Shown here in pieces: positions 5,434 to 59,430 of a stretch of DNA of 64,000 nt. The translations under genes and the position numbers were made by a program. The notes beneath the pieces were generated by a model. The model had not been told where the DNA came from. It did no database searches and saw nothing but the letters and a program-made list of their open reading frames with translations. The DNA is from an uncultured Candidatus Saccharibacteria bacterium. GTDB taxonomy: Bacteria; Patescibacteriota; Saccharimonadia; CAILAD01; BJGX01. Positions within the stretch are counted from its first letter, which is position 1. Every line of letters begins with the position of its first letter. The stretch lies in NCBI GenBank assembly GCA_964552475.1, contig CAZKFZ010000001.1:35347-99346 (forward strand), given 5' to 3'.

Positions 5434-6303
5434 ATGACCAATACTACCAACCCCACCAAACAATCTAGTTCAAACCCGTCACAAACACCCACTACCAACC
5501 AAGATGGTAGCTACTCACATCCTTACAAAACTGTTTGTTTGCAAAAAGGTAGAAAAGTAAATCCCATAAGAGACGACATCAACGACGATGGTGGTGAGCC
5601 CCAAATACATCTCTTTTCGGCCGAAGATGCCTATGGCAAGTACGATATTCATAGGTACTATTTTACTTTTGAGCTACCCATTGCCAATCAACAGGTTTTT
5701 ATACGATCGCGTGCCTCTGGCAATCAATTTTTGCGTTTGCCTAGTCGGTCGCAAATATACAATGCCGAAGGCATTTTTGGCGACACCGCCGATCTGTACA
5801 TTGCCAAAGGCCAGCAAAACAACGCTCTCACTATTTTAGATCCCGACACCATGGCCGATATGCTCGAGCTACTTAAGACTTGCGATATAGAAATATATGG
5901 CCGTACTGTTTACATTGTCTACGGTGGTTTTAAAGAGAACGACCCTATAATGACAGAGGTAAAAAAGCTTGCGCAAGAGATGTATCGCGACGCCCAGAGG
6001 CGGCAAGATAAATCTAAGCCCTTGCCAGACGCCCACCTCGTAGAGAACCCACTCAAGTATTCTATTACCACAGCCGGCGGTACCAGCCCGGGCCGAATAG
6101 CCCAACTAGTTGCTATAATAGCCATTGGCTTTGTACTGGGGTTTTTCTTAAGAAAATATTTTGATCGTAGCACCTCTAAGCTAATTTTGCAGATTGTAGG
6201 TATAATATTTGGTATTACTATTATAATTATTGGCGAGAGGTTAGTTCGTCGCAGGCGCAACAAGTTAGATAGAGCTATCAAGCAAGACTTTAGCGATAAA
6301 TAG
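5434..6303 (+). CDS. hypothetical protein with C-terminal TM anchor
   Basis: 289-aa ORF. N-terminal T/S/N/P-rich region, C-terminal hydrophobic helix plus basic tail (RRRRNK). Confidence 0.5.
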   Translation: MTNTTNPTKQSSSNPSQTPTTNQDGSYSHPYKTVCLQKGRKVNPIRDDINDDGGEPQIHLFSAEDAYGKYDIHRYYFTFELPIANQQVFIRSRASGNQFLRLPSRSQIYNAEGIFGDTADLYIAKGQQNNALTILDPDTMADMLELLKTCDIEIYGRTVYIVYGGFKENDPIMTEVKKLAQEMYRDAQRRQDKSKPLPDAHLVENPLKYSITTAGGTSPGRIAQLVAIIAIGFVLGFFLRKYFDRSTSKLILQIVGIIFGITIIIIGERLVRRRRNKLDRAIKQDFSDK

Positions 6304-6364
6304 TCTTTTAAAAAGCACCTCTAATTGCTCTTGGTGCGTCTAGAAGAGTACAATAGGTAGTATT

Positions 6365-6712
6365 ATGGCAGAGATAAAAGATCTTCAAAAAGAAGTAGTT
6401 AAGTTTCGCGATGAGCGCGATTGGGCGCAATTTCATAACCCCAAAGATTCTGCAATTTCATTAGCGCTAGAGGCCGCCGAGGTACTCGAGCATTTTCAAT
6501 GGAAGAGTGCAGAGGAGATGCAGGCGCATGTAGAAATTAACAAGGTAGATGTGAGCGAAGAGCTAGCCGATGTTTTGTATTGGGTACTACTTATGTGTAA
6601 CGATTTAGATATTGATATATCTGAGGCTTTTATGGCTAAGCTCAAAAAGAATGCCAAGAAATACCCCATTGCTAAAGCAAAAGGAAATCATAAAAAATAT
6701 AGTGAGTTATAG
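6365..6712 (+). CDS. MazG-like nucleotide pyrophosphohydrolase (small all-alpha NTP-PPase)
   Basis: 115 aa. FRDERDWAQFHNPKD...EAAEVLEHFQWKS...ELADVLYWVLLMCNDLDIDI matches the MazG/YpjD-like core (EExxE/D acidic helices). Confidence 0.7.
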   Translation: MAEIKDLQKEVVKFRDERDWAQFHNPKDSAISLALEAAEVLEHFQWKSAEEMQAHVEINKVDVSEELADVLYWVLLMCNDLDIDISEAFMAKLKKNAKKYPIAKAKGNHKKYSEL

Positions 6713-6782
6713 CTGGCTCTATCTGTAGATCTGAAAAAGTGATATAATTGTGGCAAATTAAATCTGGAGCAAAGTATCAAGT

Positions 6783-9700
6783 ATGCCTGACAACTTACCC
6801 AAAATCAAAACTACGAAAGTAGTGTACCCGCAGATATATTCATATACTCTGCCTGAACATAAAGCCAATGAAGGCTCACAGAAGATAGGCTATACAGAAC
6901 GTAAAGATGTTGATGCTCGTATAAATGAACAAACTCACACTGCTGCAATTAAACTCAAGCCACAAAAGCTGTGGAGTGCACCATCTTTTTTTGCTGATAA
7001 TAAAAATGATTTCAACGACAAAACTTTTCATAAATTCTTAGTAAAAAATGGTGTAGAGAACAGGTTGGATTTGGGTAAGGAGTGGTTCTATTTTGATGGT
7101 ACGCCTGAGAAATCAAAAGAACTGTTTGATGCATTTCGTGAGCAAGGCTTTGCAGCTTTGCAAAATGTCGATAAAAAGATACCCTACTCTCTACGTACTG
7201 AGCAGCAAGCCGCAGTAACAATGGCAAAAAACTATTTTACAAAGCATAGTGGAGGTGAGGTATTATGGAATGCGAAGCCGAGATTTGGTAAAACTCTAGC
7301 TACGTACGATTTAGCCAAACAAATGCAAGCCAGAAAAGTATTGATTGTCACCAACCGACCTGCAATCGCTAACTCATGGCTGGATGATTTTGAGCAATTT
7401 GTCGAAGGTTATATGTTCATTTCTGAAACGTCTTCATTATCAAATCGCACCGCACTTACTAGAGAACAATTTGTCTCAACTTCTGTAGAGCTACCTCAAA
7501 TTACCTTTTTATCACTACAGGATATGAAAGGCTCAAGATATTTTGGTGGTGATTACGAAAAACTCGAGTGGGTTGCTGATCTCGAGTGGGATATGCTAGT
7601 GATCGATGAAGCCCATGAAGGGATCGATACAGAGCGTACTGACGCGGCCTTTGACATAGTCAAGCGAAAATATACACTGCATTTATCTGGCACGCCGTTT
7701 AAGGCTTTGGCAAATAATAAATTTCCTAAAGAAGCTATCTTTAATTGGACGTATCTTGATGAACAGAAAATCAAACAAGCAGAACTAGAAGAAAATGATA
7801 CGGGTGATCACACAGAACTACCAAACCTAAAGCTATATACATATAGAATTTCTGAGATGGTGGCGGATGAGGTGAATGAAGGAATAGAAATTGATAATGA
7901 AACACGTGATTTTGCATTTGATCTCAATGAATTTTTTGCTACTAAAGATCAGAAGTTTGTTCATGAAGAAGATGTACGGGAATTCTTAAAGAATCTTACT
8001 TCTAATACAAAATATCCTTTTTCAACCCCAGATCTACGTGAAGAACTACGCCATACATTTTGGTATGTTGGTAATAGAGTTGACTCAGTAAAAGCTCTTG
8101 AGCAGTTGTTAAAACAAGACGATATCCTTAAAGATTATAAGATAGTAGTAGCAGCCGGTGATGGTAAGTCATTTGAAGAAGAAGAAAATGACTTCTATGG
8201 CAACGAGAAATCGTTCGATAAAGTCAAGAAGGCTATTGCAGAAAACCCCAGAACCATTACTCTTTCTTGCGGTCAGCTCACAGCCGGTGTGACTATTAAA
8301 GAGTGGTCTGCCGTATTGATGCTTACCGATATAAAGACACCCGCTCAATATATGCAGGCAGCTTTTCGTGCTCAAAACCCACACAGATTTTATGAAGACG
8401 GTCAGCTAAAAGCAAAAGAATCTGCTTATCTATTTGACTTTGCACCAACAAGAGTATTGGAAATATACGACCAGTTTGCGAATGGATTGAATGGCAAAGC
8501 TGCTAATGGTGAAATAACAGAATCTGAACGCAAAGAAAATATCAAAGAGTTACTCAACTTTTTTCCTGTAATATCTGAAGATATAGATGGCAAGATGGTA
8601 GAGTTAGATGCAGAGAAGGTCCTTACATTCCCGAATGCACTAGCTGCAGCTGAAATCGTAAAAGCGCGCTTTATGACCAACTTGTTGTTCAATGACAATG
8701 TAAAAGGCGTATTTAGTTTTCCTAAAGAAGTAGAAGATATTCTCGACAAAATGCCAATAGAGAAAAACAAGCGTGCAGAAGTTGCTAAGAGTGTGCTAGA
8801 CCTTGATGATGCGCGTAAGTTTGAGCAGTCAAGAGAAGCCAAGATCAACGAAAACTCAGGTGTAATACTAGGCGAGAAGATATTCCGTTCGAATATCGAA
8901 CGAGTTGTAGACAACGCATTGAATGCCGAAACTACCGAAGAAATAATTGAAACATTGCCTGATAAGATTACCGAGCTAGCTGAGCCACTAATTGCAAAAT
9001 ACAAAGAAGTATACAAAGCAACAAACGCTGAGGTTGAAGAAATGAAAAAAGAAACAGATGAAAAGGTACGGCTAGTCGTTGCTGAATACGAAAGCTCTGA
9101 GATAAAAGACACGGCCAAGCTAAAAGAAAACCTTGCAAATGTAATTGAAAATGACCTGGTTATAGATAGAGTTGAACAAAAAGAAACAGAAGTAGTTGAG
9201 AAAGTTCAGAAGACAAAAGAAGAAGAAGTACGAGACCGTCTACGTTCGTTTACTCGCACTATACCAATGTTTATTATGGCGAACTCAACAAAAGAAACTA
9301 TCAACATAGATAATTTTGATGATCATATAGACGATAATGATTTTGAAGATCTTACCAATATCACTAAAGATGAGTTTTATAAGCTCAGAGATGGCTTTGA
9401 CTATGATGAGAATGGTGAACGCAAAACCTTTGGAGGGGTATTTGATCGCTACAAGTTCAATGCCTCAATAGCTGAGTTTGTAGCTGAGAAGCAAAAACGT
9501 GCTGACTACTTCAATACCCATGAGGATATATTCGAACTCATACCCAATCAGAAAAACAATCAGATATTTACACCTAGAAAAGTCGTGCAGATAATGATTA
9601 ACAGTTTAGAGAAAGAAAGCCCAGAACTTTTCGAAAGAACTGATAGTACTTTTATAGATCTATACATGAAGTCAGGTATGTATATTACTGAGATAGTCAA

Positions 9701-10997
9701 AAAGTTGTTTACCCATACTCGCAAGCACTATAATAGTGATACAGAGTGTTTAAAGCATATATTAGAAAATCAAGTATACGGTTTGGCACCCACCAAGGTG
9801 CTATATGATATTACCCAGTCGTATATATTTGGTTTCGATCAAAATAACAAAGTTAGTAACCACAATTTTGTTGAGCACGACTTACTGCCCGAGGCAAAAG
9901 ACGATACTGCAGCAAAGAAACTCGCACAATTATTTGGAAATGGAGGAAGTATGATGAAATTTGATGCCGTAGTGGGGAATCCACCGTATCAGGAAAATAG
10001 CGGAACAAGTGCCCGAGATGATGCTATATACAATTATTTTTACGACACTGCTGTACAGATAGCTGATAAATACTGCCTGATTTCGCCTGCACGCTTCTTA
10101 TTCAATGCCGGTAGTACCCCAAGACAATGGAATAAAAAAATGCTTAATGACACTCACTTGAAAATTATATCTTATGCGCACGACTCGTCAGCTGTTTTTC
10201 CTAATGTAGGTATTGCGGGTGGTGTAGTGATTATCTTTAGAGATGCTACTCAAGAATATGGAGCAATCGGTACATTTACAAGCTTTGATGAGCTAAATAG
10301 TATTGCGAGTAAAGTGAACACAGCCAGACAAGAAGCACTGACTAATATAATTTCAGGACGGGGTATATATAGGCTAACCCCGCAGCTGCATGAAGAACAC
10401 CCTGAAGTCAAAAATATGCAATCTGCTGGCCACAAAGACGATGTCGGGACGGGTGCATTTGATAAGTTTATCGGAATTATATTTTTTAAATCAAAACCGA
10501 ATGACGGAAAACATTACACACGCGTATACGGTAGGCTGGCCAATGAAAGAACTGATATGTGGATCAGGTCTGACTATATCAATAAACCATATGCAAATGA
10601 TAAGTATAGGGTCATTATTCCTAAAGCTTATGGTACTGGCATAACCGGAGTGGGTGTAACTGCAAGTTTGATTGGAAAACCTTTTGTTATTAAGCCTAAT
10701 GAAGCCTTTACAGAGATGTACATATCCATAGGCGATTTTGAGAGCGAACAAAGTGCTTTAAATGCTTTAAAATACGTAAAATCTAAGTTTGCGCGAGTGA
10801 TGCTAGCTGTCCTTAAGGTTACACAAGACAACACTAAAGAGAAATGGTCAAAAGTTCCACTCCAAGACTTCACATCGAACTCTGATATCGACTGGTCGAA
10901 ATCCATTCCAGAAATCGATCAGCAACTATATGCAAAGTATAAGTTATCAAAAGATGAAATAGAATTTATAGAGTCTCATGTTAAGCCCATGGTGTAG
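6783..10997 (+). CDS. single-polypeptide SNF2/DEAH-box helicase fused to Eco57I-type N6-adenine DNA methyltransferase (Type ISP-like restriction-modification or anti-restriction enzyme)
   Basis: 1404 aa. Helicase motifs: Walker A AKPRFGKT (motif I), VIDEAHEG (motif II DEAH), LHLSGTPF (motif III, SNF2/ResIII-like). A ~250-aa E/K-rich coiled-coil linker follows. MTase motifs: NQIFTPRKVV (motif X, FxxP) and VVGNPPYQ (motif IV NPPY, gamma-class N6-adenine). A ~250-aa C-terminal region could act as a target-recognition domain. The ~150-aa N-terminal domain has a possible GIY-YIG-like stretch (QIYSYTL...KIGYTERKDVDARINEQTH), unconfirmed. Confidence 0.8.
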   Translation: MPDNLPKIKTTKVVYPQIYSYTLPEHKANEGSQKIGYTERKDVDARINEQTHTAAIKLKPQKLWSAPSFFADNKNDFNDKTFHKFLVKNGVENRLDLGKEWFYFDGTPEKSKELFDAFREQGFAALQNVDKKIPYSLRTEQQAAVTMAKNYFTKHSGGEVLWNAKPRFGKTLATYDLAKQMQARKVLIVTNRPAIANSWLDDFEQFVEGYMFISETSSLSNRTALTREQFVSTSVELPQITFLSLQDMKGSRYFGGDYEKLEWVADLEWDMLVIDEAHEGIDTERTDAAFDIVKRKYTLHLSGTPFKALANNKFPKEAIFNWTYLDEQKIKQAELEENDTGDHTELPNLKLYTYRISEMVADEVNEGIEIDNETRDFAFDLNEFFATKDQKFVHEEDVREFLKNLTSNTKYPFSTPDLREELRHTFWYVGNRVDSVKALEQLLKQDDILKDYKIVVAAGDGKSFEEEENDFYGNEKSFDKVKKAIAENPRTITLSCGQLTAGVTIKEWSAVLMLTDIKTPAQYMQAAFRAQNPHRFYEDGQLKAKESAYLFDFAPTRVLEIYDQFANGLNGKAANGEITESERKENIKELLNFFPVISEDIDGKMVELDAEKVLTFPNALAAAEIVKARFMTNLLFNDNVKGVFSFPKEVEDILDKMPIEKNKRAEVAKSVLDLDDARKFEQSREAKINENSGVILGEKIFRSNIERVVDNALNAETTEEIIETLPDKITELAEPLIAKYKEVYKATNAEVEEMKKETDEKVRLVVAEYESSEIKDTAKLKENLANVIENDLVIDRVEQKETEVVEKVQKTKEEEVRDRLRSFTRTIPMFIMANSTKETINIDNFDDHIDDNDFEDLTNITKDEFYKLRDGFDYDENGERKTFGGVFDRYKFNASIAEFVAEKQKRADYFNTHEDIFELIPNQKNNQIFTPRKVVQIMINSLEKESPELFERTDSTFIDLYMKSGMYITEIVKKLFTHTRKHYNSDTECLKHILENQVYGLAPTKVLYDITQSYIFGFDQNNKVSNHNFVEHDLLPEAKDDTAAKKLAQLFGNGGSMMKFDAVVGNPPYQENSGTSARDDAIYNYFYDTAVQIADKYCLISPARFLFNAGSTPRQWNKKMLNDTHLKIISYAHDSSAVFPNVGIAGGVVIIFRDATQEYGAIGTFTSFDELNSIASKVNTARQEALTNIISGRGIYRLTPQLHEEHPEVKNMQSAGHKDDVGTGAFDKFIGIIFFKSKPNDGKHYTRVYGRLANERTDMWIRSDYINKPYANDKYRVIIPKAYGTGITGVGVTASLIGKPFVIKPNEAFTEMYISIGDFESEQSALNALKYVKSKFARVMLAVLKVTQDNTKEKWSKVPLQDFTSNSDIDWSKSIPEIDQQLYAKYKLSKDEIEFIESHVKPMV

Positions 10998-11000
10998 TTA

Positions 11001-11969
11001 GTGGTAGCCAAGCCTAGCATTGATATTTTTGAGAATTCTCTCCGCTCAAGAGGTAATTTACTAGATATATTACTTCTTGATCGTACTACTAAGAAAAATA
11101 TAATTTGGGCTACAGACTCATATAACAAAGCTCAAAAGAATAATAGTTTTTCACCGCGTAGGCAAATAAAACCAGAGCTTGTTACGGGCAAAGTTTATGG
11201 CCAACTTATACAACCAAGAGCTGCAAAACCACTATACGAGCAGCGTAAGCGTACCAAAGACAAAGCGGAGGTTTTCACACCATTACGTGTAGTAGACCAA
11301 ATGAACAAGCATATAGACTGGTCTAGTAGTTATCCACCAAACAAAGATAACTGGCAGGACTATGTGAAACAGCTAAAACTAGAGATAACATGTGGCGAAG
11401 CACCTTTTATGGTAGGAAGGTACAACCCAGATGCTCACACAGGTAAACTGATACAACTATACACTAAGACTGGCAAGCCAAACCGAGTAGGGTTTTTAGA
11501 TCGCAAGCTATACATAGTTTCAAAATATTGCAACAAGCATAGTCAGTGGGTACATTGGGCAAAAGAAGCATTTAAGGCAAGTTATGGATATGAGTGGCAG
11601 GGTGACAATATACTTATAGCTCGTGAGAATTTACTATATACATTTATAGATTTCTATGTAGATAAATTCAAACGTCGCCCATCGTTAAAATTACAAGAAG
11701 AGATTGCAGAGATAATAAGCTGGAATATATTTCAAATGGATGGGCTAAAATATGTAGTACCTATGAGCTGTAAACACATCAATAGAGTAATCCCCGGCGA
11801 GCTTACACTTTTTGGTGAGACACCAGACAGAGTAGAGAAAGACGAATGCGATGGATGTAAGTTACAAAAACCATACAAGCATAACGGTAAGTATGTAAAA
11901 ATAATGGATTGGGAGAAAAATACCACCATAAAGTTCGTTGATCTAATAACACAAAACGACGGCTTGTAA
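11001..11969 (+). CDS. hypothetical Cys-cluster protein translationally coupled to the helicase-MTase gene
   Basis: 322 aa. GTG start 3 nt after the upstream stop. Contains an AEVFTPLRVVDQM motif reminiscent of MTase motif X but no NPPY. C-terminal CKH...C-x2-C cluster (MSCKHIN...DECDGCK). Confidence 0.55.
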   Translation: MVAKPSIDIFENSLRSRGNLLDILLLDRTTKKNIIWATDSYNKAQKNNSFSPRRQIKPELVTGKVYGQLIQPRAAKPLYEQRKRTKDKAEVFTPLRVVDQMNKHIDWSSSYPPNKDNWQDYVKQLKLEITCGEAPFMVGRYNPDAHTGKLIQLYTKTGKPNRVGFLDRKLYIVSKYCNKHSQWVHWAKEAFKASYGYEWQGDNILIARENLLYTFIDFYVDKFKRRPSLKLQEEIAEIISWNIFQMDGLKYVVPMSCKHINRVIPGELTLFGETPDRVEKDECDGCKLQKPYKHNGKYVKIMDWEKNTTIKFVDLITQNDGL

Positions 11970-12052
11970 CCATCGTTTTGCTGGGAGGTGTAGCTTTTCT
12001 AGCGCTTTAGTACTGTCACTACCTAGCTCTCTATAAACCAGCTACTTTTCCA

Positions 12053-12277
12053 TTAACCTCTTGGTGGGAACGGGTCGTTACCGTAAGTCTCACGGTTTTC
12101 AATTGTACCATCTAATTTTTGAATAACTAATTCACTAGGTTGATTTTGTTTAGCAGTAAGTCTGCCTGTTTGCACAACTTTTATCTTTAGTGTATCCACG
12201 AAAAGTACCTTTTTATTATGTGTAAGCGCCCAGCTAGTTTTTGCTGGAGACACATAGTAGTATTTTCTCATCCACAC
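12053..12277 (-). CDS. hypothetical small protein
   Basis: 74-aa ORF, the only one in this gap, with no recognisable motif. The real start may be the second Met (MRKYYYV). Confidence 0.35.
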   Translation of the reverse strand: MWMRKYYYVSPAKTSWALTHNKKVLFVDTLKIKVVQTGRLTAKQNQPSELVIQKLDGTIENRETYGNDPFPPRG

Positions 12278-12531
12278 TCCTTTCTATTACAGAACAATGT
12301 TCACCCTCCCTGTAATTTACAAGGGTAGACTACGAAAGTCTAACGATATTATAGCAAAAATATACCGAACAATAAAATCATACACATCTTTAAATTTTAA
12401 GATCAGTTTTATGTAAATTGAATATAAAAATTACATAATCAACAGGGAATAGGTATAATATATTGTGTGGATATATAATATACAGAGTAATTTATATAAT
12501 TTAATATAAAGATTAAAAAAGGAATAAATAA

Positions 12532-12912
12532 ATGGCAAAGTATGTAGATGGGTTTGTACTAGTTGTGCCCAAAGGTAAAGAAACTGAGTACCAAGAAATG
12601 GCTAAAATGGGCAGAGACTCGTGGATGAAACACGGTGCTTTGCAATACTTTGAGTGCCGAGGTGACGACCTAGTACAACATGAGCAAGGCGACGAAAAAT
12701 CGCGAGATTTTAAAGAAATGGCTGGTGCGGGAGCCGACGAAAACGTATGGTTCTCTTTTATAGTTTTTAAATCTAAAGAGCATAGAGACGAAGTAAACAA
12801 AAAAGTAATGCAAGAGATGGGCGAGGAGTACAAAGACCAAACTGATTTTGAAATGCCCAACGACATGAAAAAAATGGCCTATGGCGGTTTTGAGGTTGTA
12901 GTAGAGGGTTAG
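12532..12912 (+). CDS. DUF1428 (YbaA-like) protein
   Basis: 126 aa. MAKYVDGFVLVVPKGKE...HGALQYFECRGDDL...KKMAYGGFEVVVEG matches the YbaA/DUF1428 fold end to end. AGGAA RBS. Confidence 0.8.
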   Translation: MAKYVDGFVLVVPKGKETEYQEMAKMGRDSWMKHGALQYFECRGDDLVQHEQGDEKSRDFKEMAGAGADENVWFSFIVFKSKEHRDEVNKKVMQEMGEEYKDQTDFEMPNDMKKMAYGGFEVVVEG

Positions 12913-12962: not shown

Positions 12963-13790
12963 ATGAGCAACGAAACTAGCATAGCATTGTTTAATGACAA
13001 AGAAGTGCGCAAAACTCTGCATAAAAATGAGTGGTGGTTTTGTATTATTGACGTGGTAGAAATACTTACAGATTCTGTTGATGCTGGTGCATATTGGCGC
13101 AAACTTAAGCAAAGGCTTTTACAAGAGGGTGGCGACCAAACCGTGACAAATTGTCACAGTTTGAAAATGACAGCAAAAGACGGCAAACAACGCAACTTTG
13201 ATGCCATGAAGACAGAGGATATACTACGACTTATACAATCTATACCTTCACCCAAGGCCGAGCCGTTTAAGCGTTGGCTAGCACAAGTAGGTAGTGAGAG
13301 AATTGCTGAGATAGATAACCCCGAGCTTGCCACCGAACGTATGCGCAAGCTATATGAAGCCAAGGGGTACTCGAAAGGCTGGATAGATAAGCGTGTGCGA
13401 GGCATCAATGTACGAGACGAGCTAACAAGCGAATGGAAACAACGAGGCGTAAAAGAGGGCAGAGAGTACGCTATACTTACCAACGATATTTCAAAAGCAA
13501 CATTTGGTATGACAGCGACAGAATATAAAAAACATAAGAGCTTACAACTCGAGAATTTGCGTGATCATATGACAGATCTTGAGCTTATATTTACTATGCT
13601 TGGTGAAGCTGCCACTACAGAAATAGCGCGCAATAAAGATGCACAAGGTTTTTGGCAAAATAAAATGGCAGCTAATCAAGGCGGAAAGATAGCGGGTGAC
13701 GCGAGGGGCAAGCTAGAAAAAGAAAGTGGCAAAAGAGTTGTGAGTAAAGGTAACTACTTAGATAACAACGGCGCAAATAAACTCAAATAA
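12963..13790 (+). CDS. DinD/BRO-N-family protein (DNA-damage-inducible protein D-like)
   Basis: 275 aa. KRWLAQVGSERIAEIDNPELATERMRKLYEAKGYSKGWIDKRVRGI and the C-terminal ARNKDAQGFWQNKMAANQGGKIAGDARGKLEKESGKRVV resemble E. coli DinD and phage Bro-N/antirepressor proteins. Confidence 0.65.
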   Translation: MSNETSIALFNDKEVRKTLHKNEWWFCIIDVVEILTDSVDAGAYWRKLKQRLLQEGGDQTVTNCHSLKMTAKDGKQRNFDAMKTEDILRLIQSIPSPKAEPFKRWLAQVGSERIAEIDNPELATERMRKLYEAKGYSKGWIDKRVRGINVRDELTSEWKQRGVKEGREYAILTNDISKATFGMTATEYKKHKSLQLENLRDHMTDLELIFTMLGEAATTEIARNKDAQGFWQNKMAANQGGKIAGDARGKLEKESGKRVVSKGNYLDNNGANKLK

Positions 13791-15896: not shown

Positions 15897-16442
15897 TTAG
15901 TAAACTATTTTGAGCTGGCTGTTTGGCTCAATAACTGTAGTAAGGGCGTTGGGCGACTCTACACCATTAATATAAAAGCGCAATTGCTGTGCTGAGTTGG
16001 TACAAAAGGTTTGCTTGGTACCGGTAACTATACATTTGGTATCTACACTCATAGGTAGAGTAGTAAACAGATCACCCCAGGTAATGTTAGGTTTGGTAAC
16101 TACCACCTGTACCTGGCTAGAGCCTTCGGGCGGTATGTATACATCGGCCGATTTGTTGTGATAACGCGGGTCGGTAAATATGCGGGTTTCACCATTTATA
16201 ATAATTTGAAAAGTAGCTGTATATGGGGTAAATACCGGTACAGTCGTAGGTTGGCTATTGTTTTGGCTGGTGCTGGCTGGTGCAGTTGTTTTAGCTCTTG
16301 TGAGATACAAGTAGCCAGCAAGAACTATAATAATAGAAACAAAGATAGCAAAAGCTACTAAATACTTATTACTACGTCTTTTTTTTGCATTTTTCATACG
16401 GCTAGTATAGCAACAATTGGTAGTACATAAAACTATTGACAT
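15897..16442 (-). CDS. secreted/membrane-anchored hypothetical protein
   Basis: 181 aa. Basic N-terminus, one TM (LVAFAIFVSIIIVLAGYLYL), then a T/P/S-rich linker and a beta-rich C-terminal domain. Confidence 0.5.
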   Translation of the reverse strand: MSIVLCTTNCCYTSRMKNAKKRRSNKYLVAFAIFVSIIIVLAGYLYLTRAKTTAPASTSQNNSQPTTVPVFTPYTATFQIIINGETRIFTDPRYHNKSADVYIPPEGSSQVQVVVTKPNITWGDLFTTLPMSVDTKCIVTGTKQTFCTNSAQQLRFYINGVESPNALTTVIEPNSQLKIVY

Positions 16443-16464
16443 TTACGCTAGTTTGTGCTAGTAT
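16436..16464 (+). promoter_or_regulatory. sigma70-like promoter for the GC-rich gene at 16505
   Basis: TTGACA, 17 nt spacer, TAGTAT. A GAGAGA RBS sits 5 nt before the ATG at 16505. Confidence 0.5.
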
Positions 16465-16504
16465 AGTTAGGCTCAAGTAAATCTACTGAAAGAGAGATGA
16501 GCAC

Positions 16505-16921
16505 ATGAACATCGACATCAGTGATCTCGACCGTGCAGCCGTGTTGGCCGCGCTCTTCAATGGGGCACGGGCTCAGGGCCTCGGTTTCATCGCTCACCAG
16601 GACGGCGACATGACCGTCGAGCAGGCTCAGGCCATCCTCAACTCCGGTACGACCTACTTCGACTACCTGCAGGGTAGGGTGATGAAGGTCGACCTCTCCG
16701 GCGACTCGTTCGACCCCTGGGGCTACGACCGCGACAACGGCGAGGGCGCTGCCCACTCCGTCATCCGCTCGCTGCGGCAGACCGGCTCGGCCTCCAACGT
16801 GGAGACCAGGCATCTGCACCAGCACGGCATGGCCGCCGCAGCCGACGAGCTTCGGGAGCACTACGGCGACGATCTCGCCGACGAGCTGGTCGGCGCCCGC
16901 CGACCGGTCAGCGAAAGCTGA
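16505..16921 (+). CDS. hypothetical protein with high-GC (actinobacterial-like) codon usage
   Basis: 138-aa ORF with strong G/C third-position bias (atc gac ctc gcc ...), in sharp contrast to the ~40% GC neighbours. The translation is protein-like. The antisense ORF 16448-16960 is judged a high-GC artefact. Confidence 0.6.
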   Translation: MNIDISDLDRAAVLAALFNGARAQGLGFIAHQDGDMTVEQAQAILNSGTTYFDYLQGRVMKVDLSGDSFDPWGYDRDNGEGAAHSVIRSLRQTGSASNVETRHLHQHGMAAAADELREHYGDDLADELVGARRPVSES

Positions 16922-17095
16922 CAAAAAGGTTTGCCAGTTCCTTTCAAAAACTGGCTCCACCTAAGTGTTTAATGATATTAAATTGAAAATTTGGGTGGCA
17001 AAAGGTTCCTTGCTGAGTATTAATCTAATGCTAAGTAAGGAGCTTTTAGCAAATAAAAGCTTTGTACCTGTCCCCAAAAAAAAGGAAAATGCAAA

Positions 17096-17539
17096 ATGAG
17101 TCGACGCTCACTCATGCAGTTGTCGTTTGTGGTGTTTACTACCGCGCTCAGCGTGGCGTACTACCACATCTACATGTCGCTCGACACCTTGGCGCGTCAA
17201 GCGCTTATCGAGATGGGCGACACCACCTACTACCCGCCAGAGAATCAGCTCTGGGTAGCTACCAAGATCGTCGCAATCTCAGCTACCTTCGTGGGTGCTG
17301 GCATGGTGGCACTGATGTTTTTTGCCTACCTTCTCATTATGGCAATGTGCAACCAAGAGATCAACTCAGCCATTCGTGACTGCGAAGAACTTGGTGGCAC
17401 GCTCACCTCAGAACCCATTAAGGTGTGCCACTGGTACAGCTACGACTGGTCGCTAACCGGTGAGTTGCCCAGCGGCGAGGAGTACATTCGCTACAACGGC
17501 GACAACTTCTTCGAGGTTTTTCCGTTCGTACACCACTAG
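17096..17539 (+). CDS. hypothetical membrane protein (GC-rich)
   Basis: 147 aa. Three hydrophobic helices then a Cys-containing soluble tail. AGGAAA RBS. Elevated GC. Confidence 0.55.
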   Translation: MSRRSLMQLSFVVFTTALSVAYYHIYMSLDTLARQALIEMGDTTYYPPENQLWVATKIVAISATFVGAGMVALMFFAYLLIMAMCNQEINSAIRDCEELGGTLTSEPIKVCHWYSYDWSLTGELPSGEEYIRYNGDNFFEVFPFVHH

Positions 17540-17557
17540 GGCCAAGTAGGCCCGCAG

Positions 17558-17589
17558 GGCCCCAACAATTGTTGGGGCCCTTTACCTAT
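17558..17589. repeat. copy 1 of a 22-nt perfect palindrome plus conserved tail (terminator-like repeat element)
   Basis: GGCCCCAACAATTGTTGGGGCC followed by CTTTACCTAT. The same 32-nt element with one substitution recurs at 19803-19834. It can fold as a 9-bp stem, AATT loop and T-rich tail. Confidence 0.8.
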
Positions 17590-17597
17590 AAAACATC

Positions 17598-17626
17598 TTG
17601 CAAATTTATAAATTTACTAGTATAAT
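17598..17626 (+). promoter_or_regulatory. sigma70-like promoter for the flotillin-like gene
   Basis: TTGCAA, 17 nt spacer, TATAAT, about 45 nt upstream of the ATG at 17672. Confidence 0.55.
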
Positions 17627-17671
17627 ACTGCATCGGAATGTATTTCCTAAACGAAAGGTCCAACAAAGGAC

Positions 17672-19765
17672 ATGGTACCTTCCAATACATATGTACTAGG
17701 CGCATCTGAGGGACTCCCAATTGTGCCTATTGTGCTTGGAGTTGTTGCATTTATTGCGCTACTTATCGTGGCGCGATTTATCGTAAAGAGCTTCAATATG
17801 ATTGGCCCAGATGAGTTTGGGTTGGTAGAGAAGCGCCTGGGCAAGAAGTTGCCAGAGGGTCAGTTAATCGCTTTTAACGGCGAGGCCGGCTATCAGGCGG
17901 AGTTGCTTCAGCCAGGCTTACGCTTCAAGCTCTGGCCTCTGTATTGGGTCACTAAGTACCCTCTGGTGCAGGTTGCTGCCGGTGAGATTGGTCTTGTTGT
18001 GGCCCAGGCCGGTGGTGATTTACCCCCAGGCTTCAAGTCTGGTGTCTACAAAGACGAGTTTGGTCTTTTTGCCAACCTAGAAACGTTTATTCAGAACGGT
18101 GGACAGCGTGGCGTGCAGAGACAGGTTTTGCCTCCGGGTACAACCCAGCAGATGCACCCTATCGCATTCATTGTACGGACTCGGTCTGAGACTTTCGGCA
18201 CGGTTTTGTCGGAGTCGGCTGAGGAAGTGCTGAATAGAATTCCGCCCGAAAAATTGGTGCCGTTCACTATTGAACCCCAGGGTCATACCGACGTAGTGGG
18301 TGTGGTTACTACACTCGAAGGCGCTCCGGCCAAAGGCATCGCCAGTCGGCTTGGTAACTTCGACGATGTAGTAGAAGCTGAGGCAGCAGATACGGCGGCT
18401 AACACCATCATCACAACGGTGCTTGCGCCCAAAAACAACCTGCACAACAACTACCAGGATTTCCAGGCTTTTCTGGATGCTGGTGGGTGCATTGGCCTCC
18501 AGCACGATCCACTACTTTACGGGCAGTACATGCTAAACCCCTACCTGGTTTCAGTTGAGCTTCGCGAGATGCTCGTTGTGCGCCAGGGCGAGGTTGCTGT
18601 GGTTAAGGCCTACGTAGGCCTACCCACCGAAGATACGTCTGGCGAGGAGTTTAAGTTTGGCTCTATTGTAGAGCCAGGTCATCAGGGTATTTGGTCGGAG
18701 CCACTGCGCACCGGCAAGTACACCCTTAACCCACGCATTTACGAGGCCGAGATTGTACCGACCTCTATCCTTACACTCAACTGGGCCAATGCAACCAGCG
18801 AGGCTCACAACCTCGATGGTTCGTTGTCGTCGATTCACGCCAAGAGCAAGGAAGCGTTCGATTTTAGCATTGATCTGCAGGTGCAGATTCACGTGCCCGA
18901 CACTCGAGCACCCAAGGTTATTAGCATGGTTGGTACCATGCAGAACCTGGTTAATGAGGTTCTGCAGTCGGCGGTAGGCAACTACTTCCGTAATACACTG
19001 CAGTCTCTAGGCGCCGCTGAGTTCATTCAGAAGCGTGACGAAGTCCAGGCCCAGGCCGAGAACTACGTCATGGGTTACCTCTCGCGTTATGAGGTAGAGG
19101 TGCGCGGTGTTTACATCCAGGATGTGGTCTTCCCACCAGAGTTGGTAGAGGTGCTTACAACGCGAGAAATCGCAGCACAGCAGACTCAAACCTACCAGAG
19201 CCAGATGGTAGCCGAGCAGGCTCGAATTGACCTGGAGAACCAAAAGGGCGTGGCCGATGCCCAGGCCGATTTGGCAAGGGCTCGGGTTTCGGTGGATGTT
19301 AACGATGCCGAGGCTCAGGCTGCGGTTAAGCGTGCTGAAGGTGAGGCTGCGGTCGTGCGTCAACGCGGTCAGGCTGCTGCCGATGTTACAAAGCTGACAG
19401 GTGAGGCTGAGGCTGCTGCCACACAAGCTACTGGTTTGGCCGAGGCCAAGGCCACCGAGGCCAAGGGTCTCGCGGTCGCCAAGGGCTTCGATGCTCAGCA
19501 GCGGGCTATTGGCCGTCAGCAGACTGGTTTGGTTGCTGCACTCGAGCAGATTGGCAAGGGTGGAGTGGTACTCACTCCGCAGATTCAGGTTGGTGGTGAC
19601 TCAGTAGGCTCTGGTCTACTAAACACCCTAATGACCTTAGGTGTCGATAAGATGGTGAACGACAACGGCGAGGGTTCGCCCGAGCTGGAGGCCGTTGATG
19701 CGTCGTCCGATGCTGAAGCCTCGGCTGAGCCGAGCGATGAAGCACCGTCAACCAACGAAGACTAA
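17672..19765 (+). CDS. SPFH/band-7 flotillin-family protein
   Basis: 697 aa. N-terminal TM, SPFH core (KSFNMIGPDEFGLVEKRLGK...), long C-terminal A/E/Q-rich repeats (AEAQAAVKRAEGEAAVVRQRGQAAAD...) typical of flotillin. Acidic tail. Elevated GC. Confidence 0.75.
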   Translation: MVPSNTYVLGASEGLPIVPIVLGVVAFIALLIVARFIVKSFNMIGPDEFGLVEKRLGKKLPEGQLIAFNGEAGYQAELLQPGLRFKLWPLYWVTKYPLVQVAAGEIGLVVAQAGGDLPPGFKSGVYKDEFGLFANLETFIQNGGQRGVQRQVLPPGTTQQMHPIAFIVRTRSETFGTVLSESAEEVLNRIPPEKLVPFTIEPQGHTDVVGVVTTLEGAPAKGIASRLGNFDDVVEAEAADTAANTIITTVLAPKNNLHNNYQDFQAFLDAGGCIGLQHDPLLYGQYMLNPYLVSVELREMLVVRQGEVAVVKAYVGLPTEDTSGEEFKFGSIVEPGHQGIWSEPLRTGKYTLNPRIYEAEIVPTSILTLNWANATSEAHNLDGSLSSIHAKSKEAFDFSIDLQVQIHVPDTRAPKVISMVGTMQNLVNEVLQSAVGNYFRNTLQSLGAAEFIQKRDEVQAQAENYVMGYLSRYEVEVRGVYIQDVVFPPELVEVLTTREIAAQQTQTYQSQMVAEQARIDLENQKGVADAQADLARARVSVDVNDAEAQAAVKRAEGEAAVVRQRGQAAADVTKLTGEAEAAATQATGLAEAKATEAKGLAVAKGFDAQQRAIGRQQTGLVAALEQIGKGGVVLTPQIQVGGDSVGSGLLNTLMTLGVDKMVNDNGEGSPELEAVDASSDAEASAEPSDEAPSTNED

Positions 19766-19802
19766 TTCGTACCTAGTACATGTAGAATAAATTGTACCCA
19801 AA

Positions 19803-19834
19803 GGCCCCAACAATTGTTGGGGCCTTTTACCTAT
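19803..19834. repeat. copy 2 of the 22-nt perfect palindrome plus tail; also the likely terminator of the flotillin gene
   Basis: GGCCCCAACAATTGTTGGGGCC followed by TTTTACCTAT, 38 nt after the stop at 19765. Confidence 0.8.
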
Positions 19835-19972
19835 TTAAAATCCCAAAACACAAATATAACTATAATCTACTAGGTATAATGTAAGTTTTATAAAATCAAG
19901 ACTAAACTACCCTGGTCTATTTATAAGTAGTATAATATACATCAATACTAAAACAGTTAAGCTTTGTAAAAA

Positions 19973-20641
19973 ATGTATAATCTAATACCTAAAGAATTTC
20001 TAAGAATAATTTACTCGCAACACAGTAAAGAGTTGGGTAAAAATCTTGCTGGTATAGTGTTGTGCGGTAGTGCAGCCAACCATAGCCTAGATCGTGACTC
20101 CGATATAGACTATGTTGTGATAGTTAAAAATTTAGATAAAAATAGCTACAAAGTCTTGGCTGATTTACGGCTTGCACTAGAAAAGCAACTTGGTTTGCAG
20201 TGCAGTAATACTGTTGTTGAGTATCACTCTATTAGAGATTTAAAAAACAACTATATGTACTTAGACGGTAAAGCAGTACAAGCCTGTATTGACTCAAACG
20301 CACAAAATACTTTACTAAATAAGAGTTATGCCATACCTAAGCTAGATTCTAGTACGGTCCGAAAGTTTTCGGCTCTAGATTTTCATAAGCTAAAAGCTCT
20401 TACTATTAAACAACTAGTAAGAATGTCTAATCCAGCTAGCTACAGCGAGAGACGTAAAGTAATAAAATTAGCTTATATTTTATGTAAAGTTTATGCACAG
20501 GCTAGTACAACTACTCAAGAAAAAGAGTATATGGATAGCATTAGAGACTCACTAATGTCAATAAAAAACAATATTCGCAAATATAATGATAGTCAGCTTT
20601 TTGAGGTTATTGCTAGAATAATTTCTCTAAATCTTCACTAG
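19973..20641 (+). CDS. minimal nucleotidyltransferase (Pol-beta superfamily; KNTase/Lnu-like)
   Basis: 222 aa. LCGSAANHSLDRDSDIDYVVIV is the G[GS]-x(9-13)-D-x-[DE] nucleotidyltransferase signature. Helical C-terminal domain. Confidence 0.6.
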   Translation: MYNLIPKEFLRIIYSQHSKELGKNLAGIVLCGSAANHSLDRDSDIDYVVIVKNLDKNSYKVLADLRLALEKQLGLQCSNTVVEYHSIRDLKNNYMYLDGKAVQACIDSNAQNTLLNKSYAIPKLDSSTVRKFSALDFHKLKALTIKQLVRMSNPASYSERRKVIKLAYILCKVYAQASTTTQEKEYMDSIRDSLMSIKNNIRKYNDSQLFEVIARIISLNLH

Positions 20642-56898: not shown

Positions 56899-57711
56899 TT
56901 GAAAAAACCGAAAGGCGAAAAAGTGCCTACCAACAAATTAATTCGCGGTGAGGTTTTTAGAGGATCTACAGACGAGTGCTTTAAGGCATTTGTGAATAGA
57001 TTTGATAAGCCTCGCGAACAAAAGCTGTTTGCTCAGCTAATTAATGTTAGCTACCACTCTACATTAAGAGTATGGATTCGTAATGGTTTCAACACTCAGG
57101 GTGAGATTCTGTTGCGTGTTCGCGTAGTGCTAGAGCTATTTGGCTACAATTGTACGGAATGGGAAGATCTTGCCGACGAAGACAGAATAATTGCCTATGC
57201 AGTTGGTCTTGGTGTGTGTAGTGCTGCAGATGCTAGTGAGGCTCTAGCCTATGCTAGAACTAAGCAGTATCTAAGGTACATCCTACAAAGAACTGGACGC
57301 ACCAAAGACAAGGACGAGTTGGCTAAAGTATATGCTGAGATTGTCTTTTCAACAACTCAGCTACACATCGCCGAGTTTTGGGATAATGATGTAAAACAAA
57401 GCCCGGTGCTCTATAGAGCTAAGCCAGTTGCAACTAATGACGAATCAACTCTTATCGTATCTGCCCCAGACGAGACAACTCTATCTGTAGCAGAAGTTGA
57501 GAATGTCTTTGTTGCTTCGGTACAGGCTCTTTTACCTCTGGCTCGCTACTTCAATAGCGACGCGGTGAGCGAAGAGCAGCGTCGAGGCTTAAGAAAACGC
57601 GTAGGTTACGACGGTATTAGCGAGCTTAGTAGCTTGTTTGATTCACTCAGTAACGAACAAAGTCGTCGCAAGATTCGTGCCAACAGGAGCGAAGAGAGGA
57701 TTGTACGCTGA
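56899..57711 (+). CDS. HTH (XRE-like) domain protein, translationally coupled to a GHKL ATPase
   Basis: 270 aa. QKLFAQLINVSYHSTLRVWIRNG looks like a helix-turn-helix. TTGACT, 17 nt spacer, TAATAT promoter-like element at 56832-56860. Stop overlaps the next start (TGATG). Confidence 0.5.
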   Translation: MKKPKGEKVPTNKLIRGEVFRGSTDECFKAFVNRFDKPREQKLFAQLINVSYHSTLRVWIRNGFNTQGEILLRVRVVLELFGYNCTEWEDLADEDRIIAYAVGLGVCSAADASEALAYARTKQYLRYILQRTGRTKDKDELAKVYAEIVFSTTQLHIAEFWDNDVKQSPVLYRAKPVATNDESTLIVSAPDETTLSVAEVENVFVASVQALLPLARYFNSDAVSEEQRRGLRKRVGYDGISELSSLFDSLSNEQSRRKIRANRSEERIVR

Positions 57712-59378: not shown

Positions 59379-59388
59379 TTAATACACA

Positions 59389-59418: not shown

Positions 59419-59430
59419 ACTTATGTGGCA

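What the first reader, a model, noticed from the sequence alone, without database searches (positions are those of the whole stretch)
6783..11969. Single-chain SNF2/DEAH helicase fused to an NPPY adenine methyltransferase, with a coupled Cys-cluster partner: candidate defence or anti-restriction module
One 1404-aa polypeptide carries, in order: an unassigned ~150-aa N-terminal domain, a complete SF2 helicase core (AKPRFGKT, DEAH, SGTP), a ~250-aa E/K-rich coiled-coil linker, a gamma-class N6-adenine MTase (FTPRKVV ... NPPYQ), and a ~250-aa C-terminal region that could specify the target. A 322-aa gene follows with only a 3-nt gap. This is the domain order of Type ISP single-polypeptide restriction-modification enzymes (LlaGI-like: nuclease, helicase, MTase, TRD). 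It also overlaps BREX PglX, DISARM DrmD/DrmMI and phage DarB-like helicase-methylases. Two things do not fit the canonical Type ISP layout: the N-terminal domain is not a recognisable Mrr-type PD-(D/E)xK nuclease (a weak GIY-YIG-like pattern is visible), and there is an extra coupled partner gene. The module sits at the edge of an accessory stretch (a DinD/BRO-N gene, DUF genes and GC islands follow), next to a MazG-like NTP-pyrophosphohydrolase that could be functionally related. In a small-genome episymbiont this could be a previously uncharacterised defence architecture.
Basis: partly seen in the sequence, partly recalled or inferred. Interest (0 to 1): 0.8.

Follow-up and report, generated by a model that had tools for sequence, protein, structure and literature searches.

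The report
Helicase-nuclease restriction enzyme with split methylase
The two genes most likely encode an ATP-driven restriction-modification enzyme whose DNA adenine methylase is split, with the catalytic and target-reading half fused to a nuclease-helicase and the cofactor-binding half made as the separate 322-aa protein; the family is widespread, catalogued as restriction-modification, and I found no experimental study of it.

Summary
Both ORFs and all quoted motifs are present as described. The 1404-aa protein reads, in order: T5orf172/GIY-YIG-type nuclease, SF2 (ResIII) helicase, coiled linker, a degenerate methylase N-half ("pN"), then a methylase C-half (MKFD..NPPYQ) with a hypervariable target-recognition segment.

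The 322-aa partner is not a nuclease or a plain zinc finger. It is the SAM-binding N-half (motifs X, I, II, III) of an Eco57I/TaqI-type gamma adenine methylase, and it lacks NPPY.

Relatives show the same three modules in every order:
- partner fused to the C-half (about 650 aa) next to a Res protein that ends at pN (Akkermansia);
- three separate genes;
- the partner placed before or after a Res::C-half fusion.

Big genes that seemed to lack a partner have a canonical N-half ORF directly upstream. Nothing else is conserved around the pair, including the MazG gene.

Best reading: a Type ISP/Type III-like ATP-dependent R-M system with a GIY-YIG-type nuclease and a methylase assembled in trans. 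This is a new variant of a known kind. PADLOC's restriction-modification models hit both proteins. No activity has been tested, and the trans-assembly is inferred.

The parts
6783..10997 (+). Big gene (1404 aa): a Res-like nuclease-helicase fused in frame to the methylase C-half plus TRD
   Evidence: ORF. Domain hits. HMM mapping gives nuc-hel-coil-pN-Chalf.
6837..7109 (+). T5orf172 / GIY-YIG-superfamily nuclease domain (residues 19-109), the predicted restriction nuclease
   Evidence: PF10544 scores 25.8 bits against a cutoff of 20. The same hit reaches the cutoff in 8 of 9 divergent relatives. Y19, Y21, Y37 and R46 are conserved at 90% or more; H83 and E100 are invariant. T5orf172 is a GIY-YIG member, and phage ICP1 Gp88, which carries it, is described as a nuclease (PMC8263062).
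7188..8732 (+). SF2 helicase-like ATPase (residues 136-650): Walker A NAKPRFGKT, DEAH, SGTP, QAAFRAQ
   Evidence: ResIII, E 3e-14. The motif residues are invariant across 41 homologs.
8733..9542 (+). E/K-rich helical linker (residues 651-920), a putative coupler
   Evidence: Composition seen. Only a weak DUF4407 hit. Moderately conserved, 0.45-0.8 pairwise identity.
9543..9953 (+). pN (residues 921-1057): a degenerate methylase N-half. Motif X is IFTPRKVV, motif I is DLYMKSGMY, motif II is possibly YGLAPT with no acid, motif III is HDLL. In relatives it is the C-terminal domain of Res.
   Evidence: Alignment of three subfamilies. Res proteins of L139, L155, Akkermansia and B. longum end just after this domain. 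hhalign to canonical N-halves is weak: probability 40.6%, E 3e-4.
9954..10292 (+). Methylase C-half, catalytic part (residues 1058-1170): MKFDAVVGNPPYQ and following, motifs IV onward
   Evidence: PADLOC MTase_II PDLC03375 covers 1058-1403. Stand-alone C-half genes start MKFDIIVGNPPYQ or MKFDFAIGNPPYQ. D1061 and G1065-Y1069 are invariant.
10293..10682 (+). Variable target-recognition segment (residues about 1171-1300)
10683..10994 (+). Conserved C-terminal tail (residues 1301-1404), ..DIDWSKSI.EIDQQLY.KY.L..EEI.FIE..
   Evidence: Pairwise identity 0.62-0.68. The same tail is present in stand-alone C-half proteins and in fused methylases.
11001..11969 (+). Partner gene (322 aa): the stand-alone SAM-binding N-half of the split gamma adenine methylase, with a zinc-ribbon-like insert
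11256..11408 (+). Partner motif X (KAEVFTP, residues 88-94) and motif I (LEITCGEAPF, residues 127-136)
   Evidence: Invariant residues E90-P94, E128, C131-E133, P135, F136. These align to FGEVFTPE and FEPTCGNGNF of canonical N-halves.
11580..11744 (+). Partner motif II (SYGYEWQGDN, with E198) and motif III (WNIFQMDG, with D247)
   Evidence: Invariant or at least 90% conserved. These align to VYAVDIQEDN and IIVGNTL of canonical N-halves.
11769..11888 (+). Cys/His cluster (C257, H259, C283, C286, H294), a zinc-ribbon-like insert that is dispensable in some lineages
   Evidence: Conserved in 40 close homologs. Absent from the Akkermansia, phage FNU4 and gut-phage forms and from the canonical N-half forms.

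Best explanation
The two genes encode one ATP-dependent restriction-modification enzyme built from three modules.

1. Res module (big protein, residues 1 to about 1057). An N-terminal T5orf172/GIY-YIG-type nuclease, an SF2 helicase-like motor, a helical coupler, and a degenerate methylase-like domain (pN).
2. Methylase C-half (big protein, residues 1058-1404). It carries the NPPY catalytic loop, a variable TaqI-type target-recognition segment and a conserved tail. In this genome it is fused in frame to the end of Res.
3. Methylase N-half (the 322-aa partner). It carries the SAM-binding motifs X, I, II and III.

Inferred mechanism. The partner docks on the C-half to complete a gamma-class N6-adenine methylase that marks the host's copies of the site read by the TRD. 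When the TRD binds an unmodified site, the helicase translocates DNA using ATP and the GIY-YIG-type domain cuts, much as Type ISP and Type I/III enzymes do.

Shown here by computation: the domain identities, the split and its permutations, the strict gene linkage, and the TRD hypervariability. Inferred only: assembly in trans, m6A formation, ATP-driven translocation, cleavage, and the role of pN (probably a coupler or docking domain).
For: Domains.
- T5orf172 reaches the cutoff in the window protein and in 8 of 9 divergent relatives; ResIII and Eco57I both pass.
- The catalytic-type residues of nuclease, ATPase and NPPY are invariant or nearly so.

The partner is a methylase N-half.
- PADLOC MTase_II, E 2.6e-88.
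- hhalign to ORFs with canonical FGEVFTPE / FEPTCGNGNFL / VYAVDIQEDN / IIVGNTL motifs gives probability 97.8%, E 1e-12, motif for motif.

Split and fusion.
- The phage PTm1 'methylase' of 345 aa starts MKFDIIVGNPPYQ, so it is a C-half only. It is accompanied by a partner homolog.
- In phage FNU4 and in representatives of about 650-710 aa, the partner is fused to that C-half and Pfam Eco57I spans the junction.

Permutations across 246 loci.
- Res-Chalf | partner: 44+29 loci.
- partner | Res-Chalf: 15+13+18 loci.
- partner | Chalf | Res: 16 loci.
- partner-Chalf fusion | Res: 6 loci.
- partner | Res | Chalf: 3 loci.
- Stand-alone Res proteins end exactly where the window protein continues into MKFD.

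Linkage.
- The partner is adjacent to a big homolog in 72 of 81 genome loci; most of the other nine are cut by a contig end, and one (L051) has 10 kb of upstream room and no big gene. No third gene is conserved.
- Nine of the twelve big loci that seemed to lack a partner have a canonical N-half ORF directly upstream; L133 has no upstream sequence and L153 and L165 were not examined.

R-M hallmarks.
- A hypervariable TRD in an otherwise roughly 80% identical protein, while the partner has no variable segment.
- Passenger genes of the kind I recall from Type I operons (DUF1016-, RhuM-, BRO-N/DinD- and AlbA_2-like by sequence inspection; only the window's BRO-N gene was scanned) inserted in the operon.
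- A Cro/C1-type HTH regulator upstream in a plasmid and a phage.
- The system makes up about half of the 10-kb plasmid pRS5.

Module evolution. The C-half stays 47-52% identical where Res, including pN, is almost unrecognisable.
Against: - No biochemical or methylome evidence exists for any member that I could find (paper searches).
- The big protein carries its own N-half-like domain directly before NPPY, and Pfam Eco57I aligns over it (996-1139 to profile 1-171). It could therefore be a self-sufficient methylase.
- The claim that pN lacks the motif II acid depends on alignment register. hhalign prefers IFGFD, with invariant D1019, in this subfamily.
- AlphaFold models are weak exactly at the junction. 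The partner model has pLDDT 68. The fused homolog has pTM 0.49, with residues 257-342, including NPPY, below 50. The packing of N-half against C-half is therefore not shown.
- No complex prediction was possible.
- NCBI annotators call some partner homologs 'restriction endonuclease'.
- The analogous B. subtilis DnmA-YeeB-YeeC cluster showed no restriction in the tests reported (PMC9973331).
Confidence: 0.6

Rival explanations
1. The big protein is a self-sufficient Type ISP-like enzyme whose own pN plus C-half form the active methylase. The partner is then an accessory subunit: a SAM sensor or allosteric regulator, a dimerisation partner comparable to an inactive methylase paralog, or a zinc-ribbon DNA clamp. 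It would not be part of the catalytic fold.
For: Pfam Eco57I aligns across pN and the C-half as one domain. pN keeps motif X (FTP), a G-containing motif I and motif III (D1033), and possibly an acid at D1019. pN is conserved in all Res subfamilies.
Against: In 25 loci pN sits at the C-terminus of a Res protein with no C-half attached, while the C-half is fused or adjacent to the partner. Stand-alone C-half genes begin at MKFD with no N-half at all, so they need one in trans. Motif I in pN has K where canonical N-halves have the first glycine, in all three subfamilies. Partners with fully canonical SAM motifs accompany big proteins.
Confidence: 0.2
2. The module does not restrict. It is a helicase-coupled methylase used for epigenetic marking or for anti-restriction protection of a mobile element (DarB-like), or a decayed R-M relic like the one proposed for B. 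subtilis DnmA-YeeB-YeeC.
For: Methylase-only versions (partner plus C-half) sit in phage genomes. The B. subtilis analog showed no restriction. There is no direct evidence of cleavage.
Against: The nuclease-type and ATPase residues are invariant or nearly so over thousands of homologs in many phyla. The TRD is hypervariable, as in active R-M systems. Passenger genes of the kind seen in R-M operons, and a Cro/C1-type HTH regulator, accompany the genes. In Vibrio, deleting dnmA or yeeB homologs increased phage sensitivity, according to PMC9973331.
Confidence: 0.1
3. The 322-aa partner is the restriction endonuclease, as some NCBI records name it. The big protein would supply modification and translocation.
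For: Homologs are annotated 'restriction endonuclease'. An HTH regulator lies directly upstream of the partner homolog in a plasmid and a phage, as it does for C-R gene pairs. One relative (P0241) carries a PD-(D/E)xK-like C-terminal extension. A Cys/His cluster is present.
Against: No nuclease family or fold was found. The motifs and the profile alignment are those of a methylase N-half. The Cys/His cluster is missing in many functional-looking relatives. In phage PTm1 its only companion is a C-half that cannot bind SAM alone. A conserved nuclease domain already exists in the big protein.
Confidence: 0.05

Closest known systems
Type ISP restriction-modification enzymes (LlaGI, LlaBIII)
   Different: The nuclease is T5orf172/GIY-YIG-type, not Mrr PD-(D/E)xK. 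There is no detectable sequence similarity to LlaBIII. A second gene encoding the methylase N-half is linked in almost every locus with enough flanking sequence. The modules occur as two or three separate genes in relatives.
Type III R-M (EcoP15I-type Mod + Res)
   Same: Relatives such as Akkermansia have a two-gene Mod (653 aa) plus Res (1110 aa, Pfam ResIII) layout. The methylase carries its own TRD.
   Different: From my own knowledge, Type III Mod is beta-class with a central TRD, and Res has its PD-(D/E)xK nuclease at the C-terminus. Here the methylase is gamma-class with a C-terminal TRD, and the nuclease is GIY-YIG-type at the N-terminus.
DnmA(YeeA)-YeeB-YeeC cluster of B. subtilis and its Vibrio relatives
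   Same: The same three activities are linked: an MmeI-like gamma adenine methylase, an SF2 helicase and a T5orf172 protein (PMC9973331).
   Different: There they are three separate proteins with a complete methylase, and T5orf172 sits at a C-terminus. Homology to the present proteins was not tested here. No split methylase is described there.
M.TaqI / CamA / M.BseCI (TaqI-type gamma adenine methylases) and Pfam Eco57I (PF07669)
   Different: In the window the fold is divided between two polypeptides at the motif III/IV boundary. The N-half carries about 90 extra N-terminal residues and a zinc-ribbon-like insert.
Type IIG enzymes (Eco57I, MmeI, BpuSI), the label PADLOC's models give it
   Same: The PADLOC REase_MTase_IIG model hits the C-terminal third, E 3e-46. 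A nuclease and a methylase sit in one chain.
   Different: From my own knowledge, Type IIG enzymes have no ATPase motor and use a PD-(D/E)xK nuclease. Only residues 924-1403 match the model well.

Membership tests
Type ISP R-M | All activities reside in one polypeptide, with no other subunit | tested here: not met
   A separate N-half gene is adjacent in 72 of 81 genome loci (one locus, L051, lacks the big gene despite 10 kb of room). Nine of the twelve big-gene loci that seemed to lack a partner have a canonical N-half ORF upstream. Whether the gene is actually required remains an inference.
Type ISP R-M | N-terminal Mrr-family PD-(D/E)xK nuclease | tested here: not met
   Residues 19-109 match T5orf172 (GIY-YIG clan) at or above the cutoff. 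No PD-(D/E)xK hit appears.
Type ISP R-M | SF2 helicase-like DEAH ATPase between the nuclease and the methylase | tested here: met
   ResIII, E 3e-14. Walker A, DEAH, SGTP and motif VI are invariant.
Type ISP R-M | Gamma-class N6-adenine methylase followed by a C-terminal TRD | tested here: met
   NPPYQ is followed by a hypervariable segment. The fold matches LlaBIII and TaqI-type methylases. The SAM-binding half, however, lies on the partner.
Type ISP R-M | Sequence homology to LlaGI or LlaBIII | tested here: not met
   phmmer and a profile search against all PDB chains, which include 4xqk, gave no hit at E <= 0.1 and E <= 1.
Type ISP R-M | ATP-driven translocation with cleavage on collision of two enzymes | not testable with these tools
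   This needs biochemistry.
Type III R-M | Beta-class Mod with a central TRD; Res with an N-terminal helicase and a C-terminal PD-(D/E)xK nuclease | tested here: not met
   The motif order is X-I-II-III-IV...TRD, which is gamma-class. The nuclease is N-terminal and GIY-YIG-type. Only the ResIII helicase hit is shared.
Type IIG R-M | Single-chain nuclease-methylase without an NTPase motor | tested here: not met
   A full SF2 ATPase is present. The PADLOC IIG model matches mainly residues 924-1403.
BREX / DISARM | PglX or DrmMI-type methylase together with PglZ/BrxC or DrmA/B/C genes | tested here: not met
   No BREX or DISARM model hit in PADLOC. Only two genes are conserved across 81 loci.
GIY-YIG superfamily, T5orf172 family (PF10544) | Profile match at or above Pfam's cutoff, and conserved Y..Y / (K)IGxT / R / H / E-W-F residues | tested here: met
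   25.8 bits against a cutoff of 20. 8 of 9 divergent relatives score 22-29 bits. Y19, Y21, Y37 and R46 are at least 90% conserved; H83 and E100 are invariant. Nuclease activity itself was not tested.
Eco57I/TaqI-type gamma N6-adenine DNA methylase (partner plus C-half taken together) | Motifs X, I, II, III, then IV (NPPY) to VIII, then the TRD, forming one Rossmann-type fold | tested here: met
Eco57I/TaqI-type gamma N6-adenine DNA methylase | SAM binding and m6A formation | not testable with these tools
   This needs a methylome or enzymology.
DnmA-YeeB-YeeC cluster | Homology of the methylase, helicase and T5orf172 proteins to YeeA, YeeB and YeeC | not tested
   Only the shared domain types are known, from PMC9973331. 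The sequences were not compared.

The most novel reading that the evidence does not exclude
The enzyme may switch between modification and restriction by exchanging methylase halves. The free N-half (the partner) and the built-in degenerate N-half (pN) at the end of the motor protein would compete for the single catalytic C-half. Partner-bound enzyme would methylate; pN-bound enzyme could not, and would translocate and cut.

Phages may exploit this. About 45 gut viral contigs encode an orphan partner-like N-half with no C-half or Res gene nearby. Such a protein could plug into the host enzyme and push it towards methylating phage DNA.
Probability: 0.12. Interest if true: 0.85.

Novelty: new variant of a known kind. 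Interest (0 to 1): 0.62.

Why it matters
If the reading holds, this is a large and unstudied branch of ATP-dependent restriction-modification. There are more than 8000 homologs of each protein and 1986 partner-family representatives at 50% identity. Hosts include CPR bacteria, Bacteroidota and Akkermansia muciniphila, and the genes also sit on Enterococcus, Lactobacillales and Bifidobacterium plasmids.

Three features stand out:
- The restriction nuclease is GIY-YIG/T5orf172-type, not PD-(D/E)xK.
- The methylase is naturally split at the boundary between the SAM-binding and catalytic subdomains.
- Nature has shuffled the three modules into at least five gene orders and fusions.

That makes it a good natural system for asking how modification and restriction are coupled to a motor. 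It may also be a practical barrier to transforming gut and CPR organisms. Defence-system annotators currently label it 'Type IIG plus Type II methylase', which hides its composition.

Tried and rejected
- PDB sequence searches with both proteins and with both family profiles gave no real hits. The IRE1 matches at E 0.06 are chance.
- BLASTP and hhalign of the partner against the big protein's own methylase region showed no significant similarity (probability 1.4%). The partner is therefore not a recent duplicate of pN.
- I first thought the partner's C-terminal IKFVDL might be strand beta-4 just before NPPY. I rejected this because fused proteins have both ..IIKFF.. and a separate MKFDFVIGNPPYQ.
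- I considered the Cys/His cluster as an HNH-like nuclease. I rejected it as a core function because the cluster is absent from the Akkermansia, FNU4 and gut-phage forms and from canonical N-half forms.
- MazG linkage is rejected: 1 of 80 loci.
- BREX and DISARM are rejected. DarB was not tested directly.
- Stop-codon readthrough of the in-frame stop between the genes is unlikely. The gaps in relatives are 7-60 nt and often not multiples of three.
- Promoter and terminator scans of 6200-12600 were no better than shuffled sequence.
- AlphaFold of the partner and of a fused homolog gave usable folds but low confidence at the junction, so they do not settle how the halves pack.
- Literature searches found no paper describing this family.


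Full report
**1. Observation**

The window holds ORF 6783..10997 (+, 1404 aa) and ORF 11001..11969 (+, GTG start, 322 aa). They are separated by a TAG stop and 3 nt, and lie in the same frame.

Pfam gives ResIII at 136-306 (E 3e-14) and Eco57I methylase at 996-1139 (E 6e-21). SNF2-rel_dom stays below its cutoff, at 22.4 against 24.9 bits. Scanned alone, residues 19-109 match T5orf172 (PF10544, GIY-YIG clan) at 25.8 bits against a cutoff of 20. The same hit reaches the cutoff in 8 of 9 N-termini taken from divergent relatives.

T5orf172 belongs to the GIY-YIG superfamily. The T5orf172 protein Gp88 of phage ICP1 is described as a nuclease in PMC8263062. Across 41 homologs the residues expected for a GIY-YIG-type site are invariant or at least 90% conserved: Y19, Y21, Y37, R46, H83, E100. 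So are the Walker A, DEAH, SGTP and motif VI residues and D1061/GNPPY. Only the 'SNF2' label fails.

**2. The C-terminus is a target-recognition region**

Pairwise identity among 41 homologs is about 0.8 through the helicase. It is 0.75-0.82 around the methylase motifs. It falls to 0.27-0.36 in residues 1171-1260 and recovers to 0.62-0.68 in the last 100 residues. A hypervariable cassette inside an otherwise highly conserved protein is what specificity-swapping R-M enzymes show. The partner has no such segment.

**3. What the partner is**

- Pfam and NCBIfam find nothing.
- PADLOC's restriction-modification model MTase_II (PDLC03390) hits it over its full length at E 2.6e-88.
- The invariant residues fall into the motifs of the SAM-binding half of such enzymes: KAEVFTP (X), LEITCGEAPF (I), SYGYEWQGDN (II, E198) and WNIFQMDG (III, D247). 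There is no NPPY. A Cys/His cluster sits after motif III.

**4. Relatives show that it is half of a split methylase**

(a) In Tenacibaculum phage PTm1 the annotated 345-aa 'methylase' begins MKFDIIVGNPPYQ. It therefore starts at motif IV and has no SAM-binding half. Its tail is the same as the window protein's, and Pfam Eco57I covers only profile positions 73-171. An HTH gene and a partner homolog follow it.

(c) Akkermansia muciniphila carries the fused 653-aa form next to a 1110-aa ResIII protein, on more than 1000 contigs.

(d) HMM mapping of six modules over 246 loci gave these arrangements:
- Res-Chalf | partner: 44+29 loci, the window type.
- partner | Res-Chalf: 15+13+18 loci.
- partner | Chalf | Res: 16 loci.
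- partner-Chalf fusion | Res: 6 loci.
- partner | Res | Chalf: 3 loci.
- Methylase-only pairs in phages.

(e) Where Res is a separate protein it ends ...NFRQLDALPYAKDG...*. That is exactly where the window protein runs on into ..GGSMMKFDAVVGNPPYQ. Stand-alone C-half genes start at that Met. The 1404-aa protein is therefore a Res::C-half gene fusion.

(f) Twelve big-gene loci with room on both sides seemed to lack a partner. Nine of them have, directly upstream, a 250-340-aa ORF with textbook N-half motifs (FGEVFTPEFIV, VFEPTCGNGNFLVEIL, NVYAVDIQEDNV, IIVGNTL) and no NPPY. Of the other three, L133 has no upstream sequence and L153 and L165 were not examined. hhalign aligns these ORFs to the partner family motif for motif, at probability 97.8% and E 1e-12.

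**5. The domain between the linker and NPPY (pN, residues 921-1057)**

pN looks like a degenerate N-half. It has FTP, then D-L-Y-M-K-S-G-M-Y where canonical proteins have E-P-x-C-G-x-G-x-F. The xKSGx(Y/F) form is kept in three subfamilies that are only 25-35% identical.

In the register implied by the Pfam hit's coordinates, the motif II acid is replaced: YGLAPT, YVLCKSP or YSIPTSP. hhalign to canonical N-halves is weak (probability 40.6%) and prefers IFGFD with D1019 in this subfamily. This point is therefore uncertain.

pN belongs to Res in every arrangement. It diverges together with Res, whereas the C-half stays 47-52% identical where Res is almost unrecognisable. I read pN as a coupler or docking domain. 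That is an inference.

**6. Context**

Only the two genes are conserved across 81 genome loci. MazG occurs in 1 of 80.

Genes that look like RhuM, DUF1016/YhcG, BRO-N/DinD and AlbA_2-type proteins are inserted between or beside the two genes in several loci. From my own knowledge, such passenger genes are typical of Type I R-M operons. I named these clusters by reading their sequences; only the window's own BRO-N gene (12963-13790), which belongs to the recurring BRO-N cluster, was scanned against Pfam.

A Cro/C1-type HTH gene precedes the system on an Enterococcus faecium conjugative plasmid and in phage PTm1. On the 10-kb Pediococcus plasmid pRS5 the two genes make up about half of the replicon. 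Extra or inverted C-half cassettes (L113, L169, L193) and the integrases beside the Akkermansia locus hint at specificity switching. PADLOC gives no BREX or DISARM hit.

**7. Mechanism**

Most likely (0.6): an ATP-dependent R-M enzyme. The TRD on the C-half reads an asymmetric site. The partner supplies the SAM pocket, so that the assembled gamma methylase marks host DNA. At unmodified sites the SF2 motor translocates and the GIY-YIG-type domain cuts.

Shown here: domain identities, linkage, permutations and TRD variability. Inferred: assembly in trans, all enzymatic activities, and the role of pN.

Rivals:
- The big protein is self-sufficient and the partner is regulatory (0.2).
- The system does not restrict: epigenetic, anti-restriction, or a relic (0.1).
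- The partner is the endonuclease (0.05).

**8. Comparison and novelty**

The architecture works like Type ISP and, in the Akkermansia form, like a Type III Mod/Res pair. It fails defining features of both. The nuclease is not Mrr-type. There is no sequence homology to LlaBIII. An extra subunit is linked in almost every locus with enough flanking sequence. The methylase is gamma-class with a C-terminal TRD, and the nuclease is N-terminal.

The B. subtilis DnmA-YeeB-YeeC cluster links the same three activities as separate proteins. PADLOC's restriction-modification models label the pieces 'Type IIG' and 'Type II methylase', so the genes are catalogued. Seven literature searches found no description of the family, of its split methylase, or of its module permutations.

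I rate it a new variant of a known kind, with interest about 0.6.

**9. Limits**

There are no experimental data. The AlphaFold models are weak at the N-half/C-half junction. No complex prediction was possible. The recognition motif is unknown. The motif II register in pN is ambiguous.

Noticed in passing
L201-L246 (IMG/VR gut viral contigs), e.g. L206 7989-8771 and L210 7962-8789: About 45 phage-like contigs encode an orphan partner-like methylase N-half of 260-275 aa. It has motifs X and I-III and no Cys cluster. No C-half or Res gene lies within the 5-8 kb fetched on either side. This could be an anti-restriction device that plugs into a host enzyme, or the other half may lie further away.
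   Followed up: partly
L113 10237-12675; L169 12153-14300; L193 about 12933; L247-L249 4100-6850: Additional C-half/TRD cassettes lie beside the system, some on the opposite strand. Tyrosine integrases sit next to the Akkermansia locus. Together these suggest recombinational switching of specificity.
   Followed up: no
window 6783-11969 compared with L005-L033: Mosaic evolution. Loci whose partner is at least 60% identical to the window's have a Res part that is nearly unrecognisable: helicase 33%, nuclease, linker and pN about 0-6%. Their C-half stays 47-52% identical. The methylase halves and the motor module therefore have different histories.
   Followed up: partly
window 12963-13790 (+): This BRO-N / DinD-like gene (Pfam Bro-N; phrog_15286, E 9e-96) belongs to a cluster that recurs beside the system in 7 loci. 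In L039 it lies between the big and partner genes, together with genes that look RhuM- and DUF1016-like by eye.
   Followed up: partly
P0241 (552 aa, metagenome): A close partner homolog carries an extra C-terminal region of about 240 aa with a PD-(D/E)xK-like pattern (..VDYVLPEIAIEVKE..). This would be a different nuclease attached to the N-half.
   Followed up: no
window 6365-6712 (+): A MazG-like NTP pyrophosphohydrolase (PF12643, E 8.5e-19) lies directly upstream. It accompanies the system in only 1 of 80 loci, so it is probably unrelated.
   Followed up: yes
window 16000-20000 and 57000-60000: GC-rich islands, 0.47-0.53 against about 0.40 for the rest of the window. The first holds a 697-aa ORF (17672-19765) with an Ala/Glu-rich C-terminal half.
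   Followed up: no
window 10995-11003: The partner ORF is in the same frame as the big ORF, separated by TAG plus one codon. Gaps in relatives are 7-60 nt and often out of frame, so readthrough fusion is unlikely to be the rule.
   Followed up: yes
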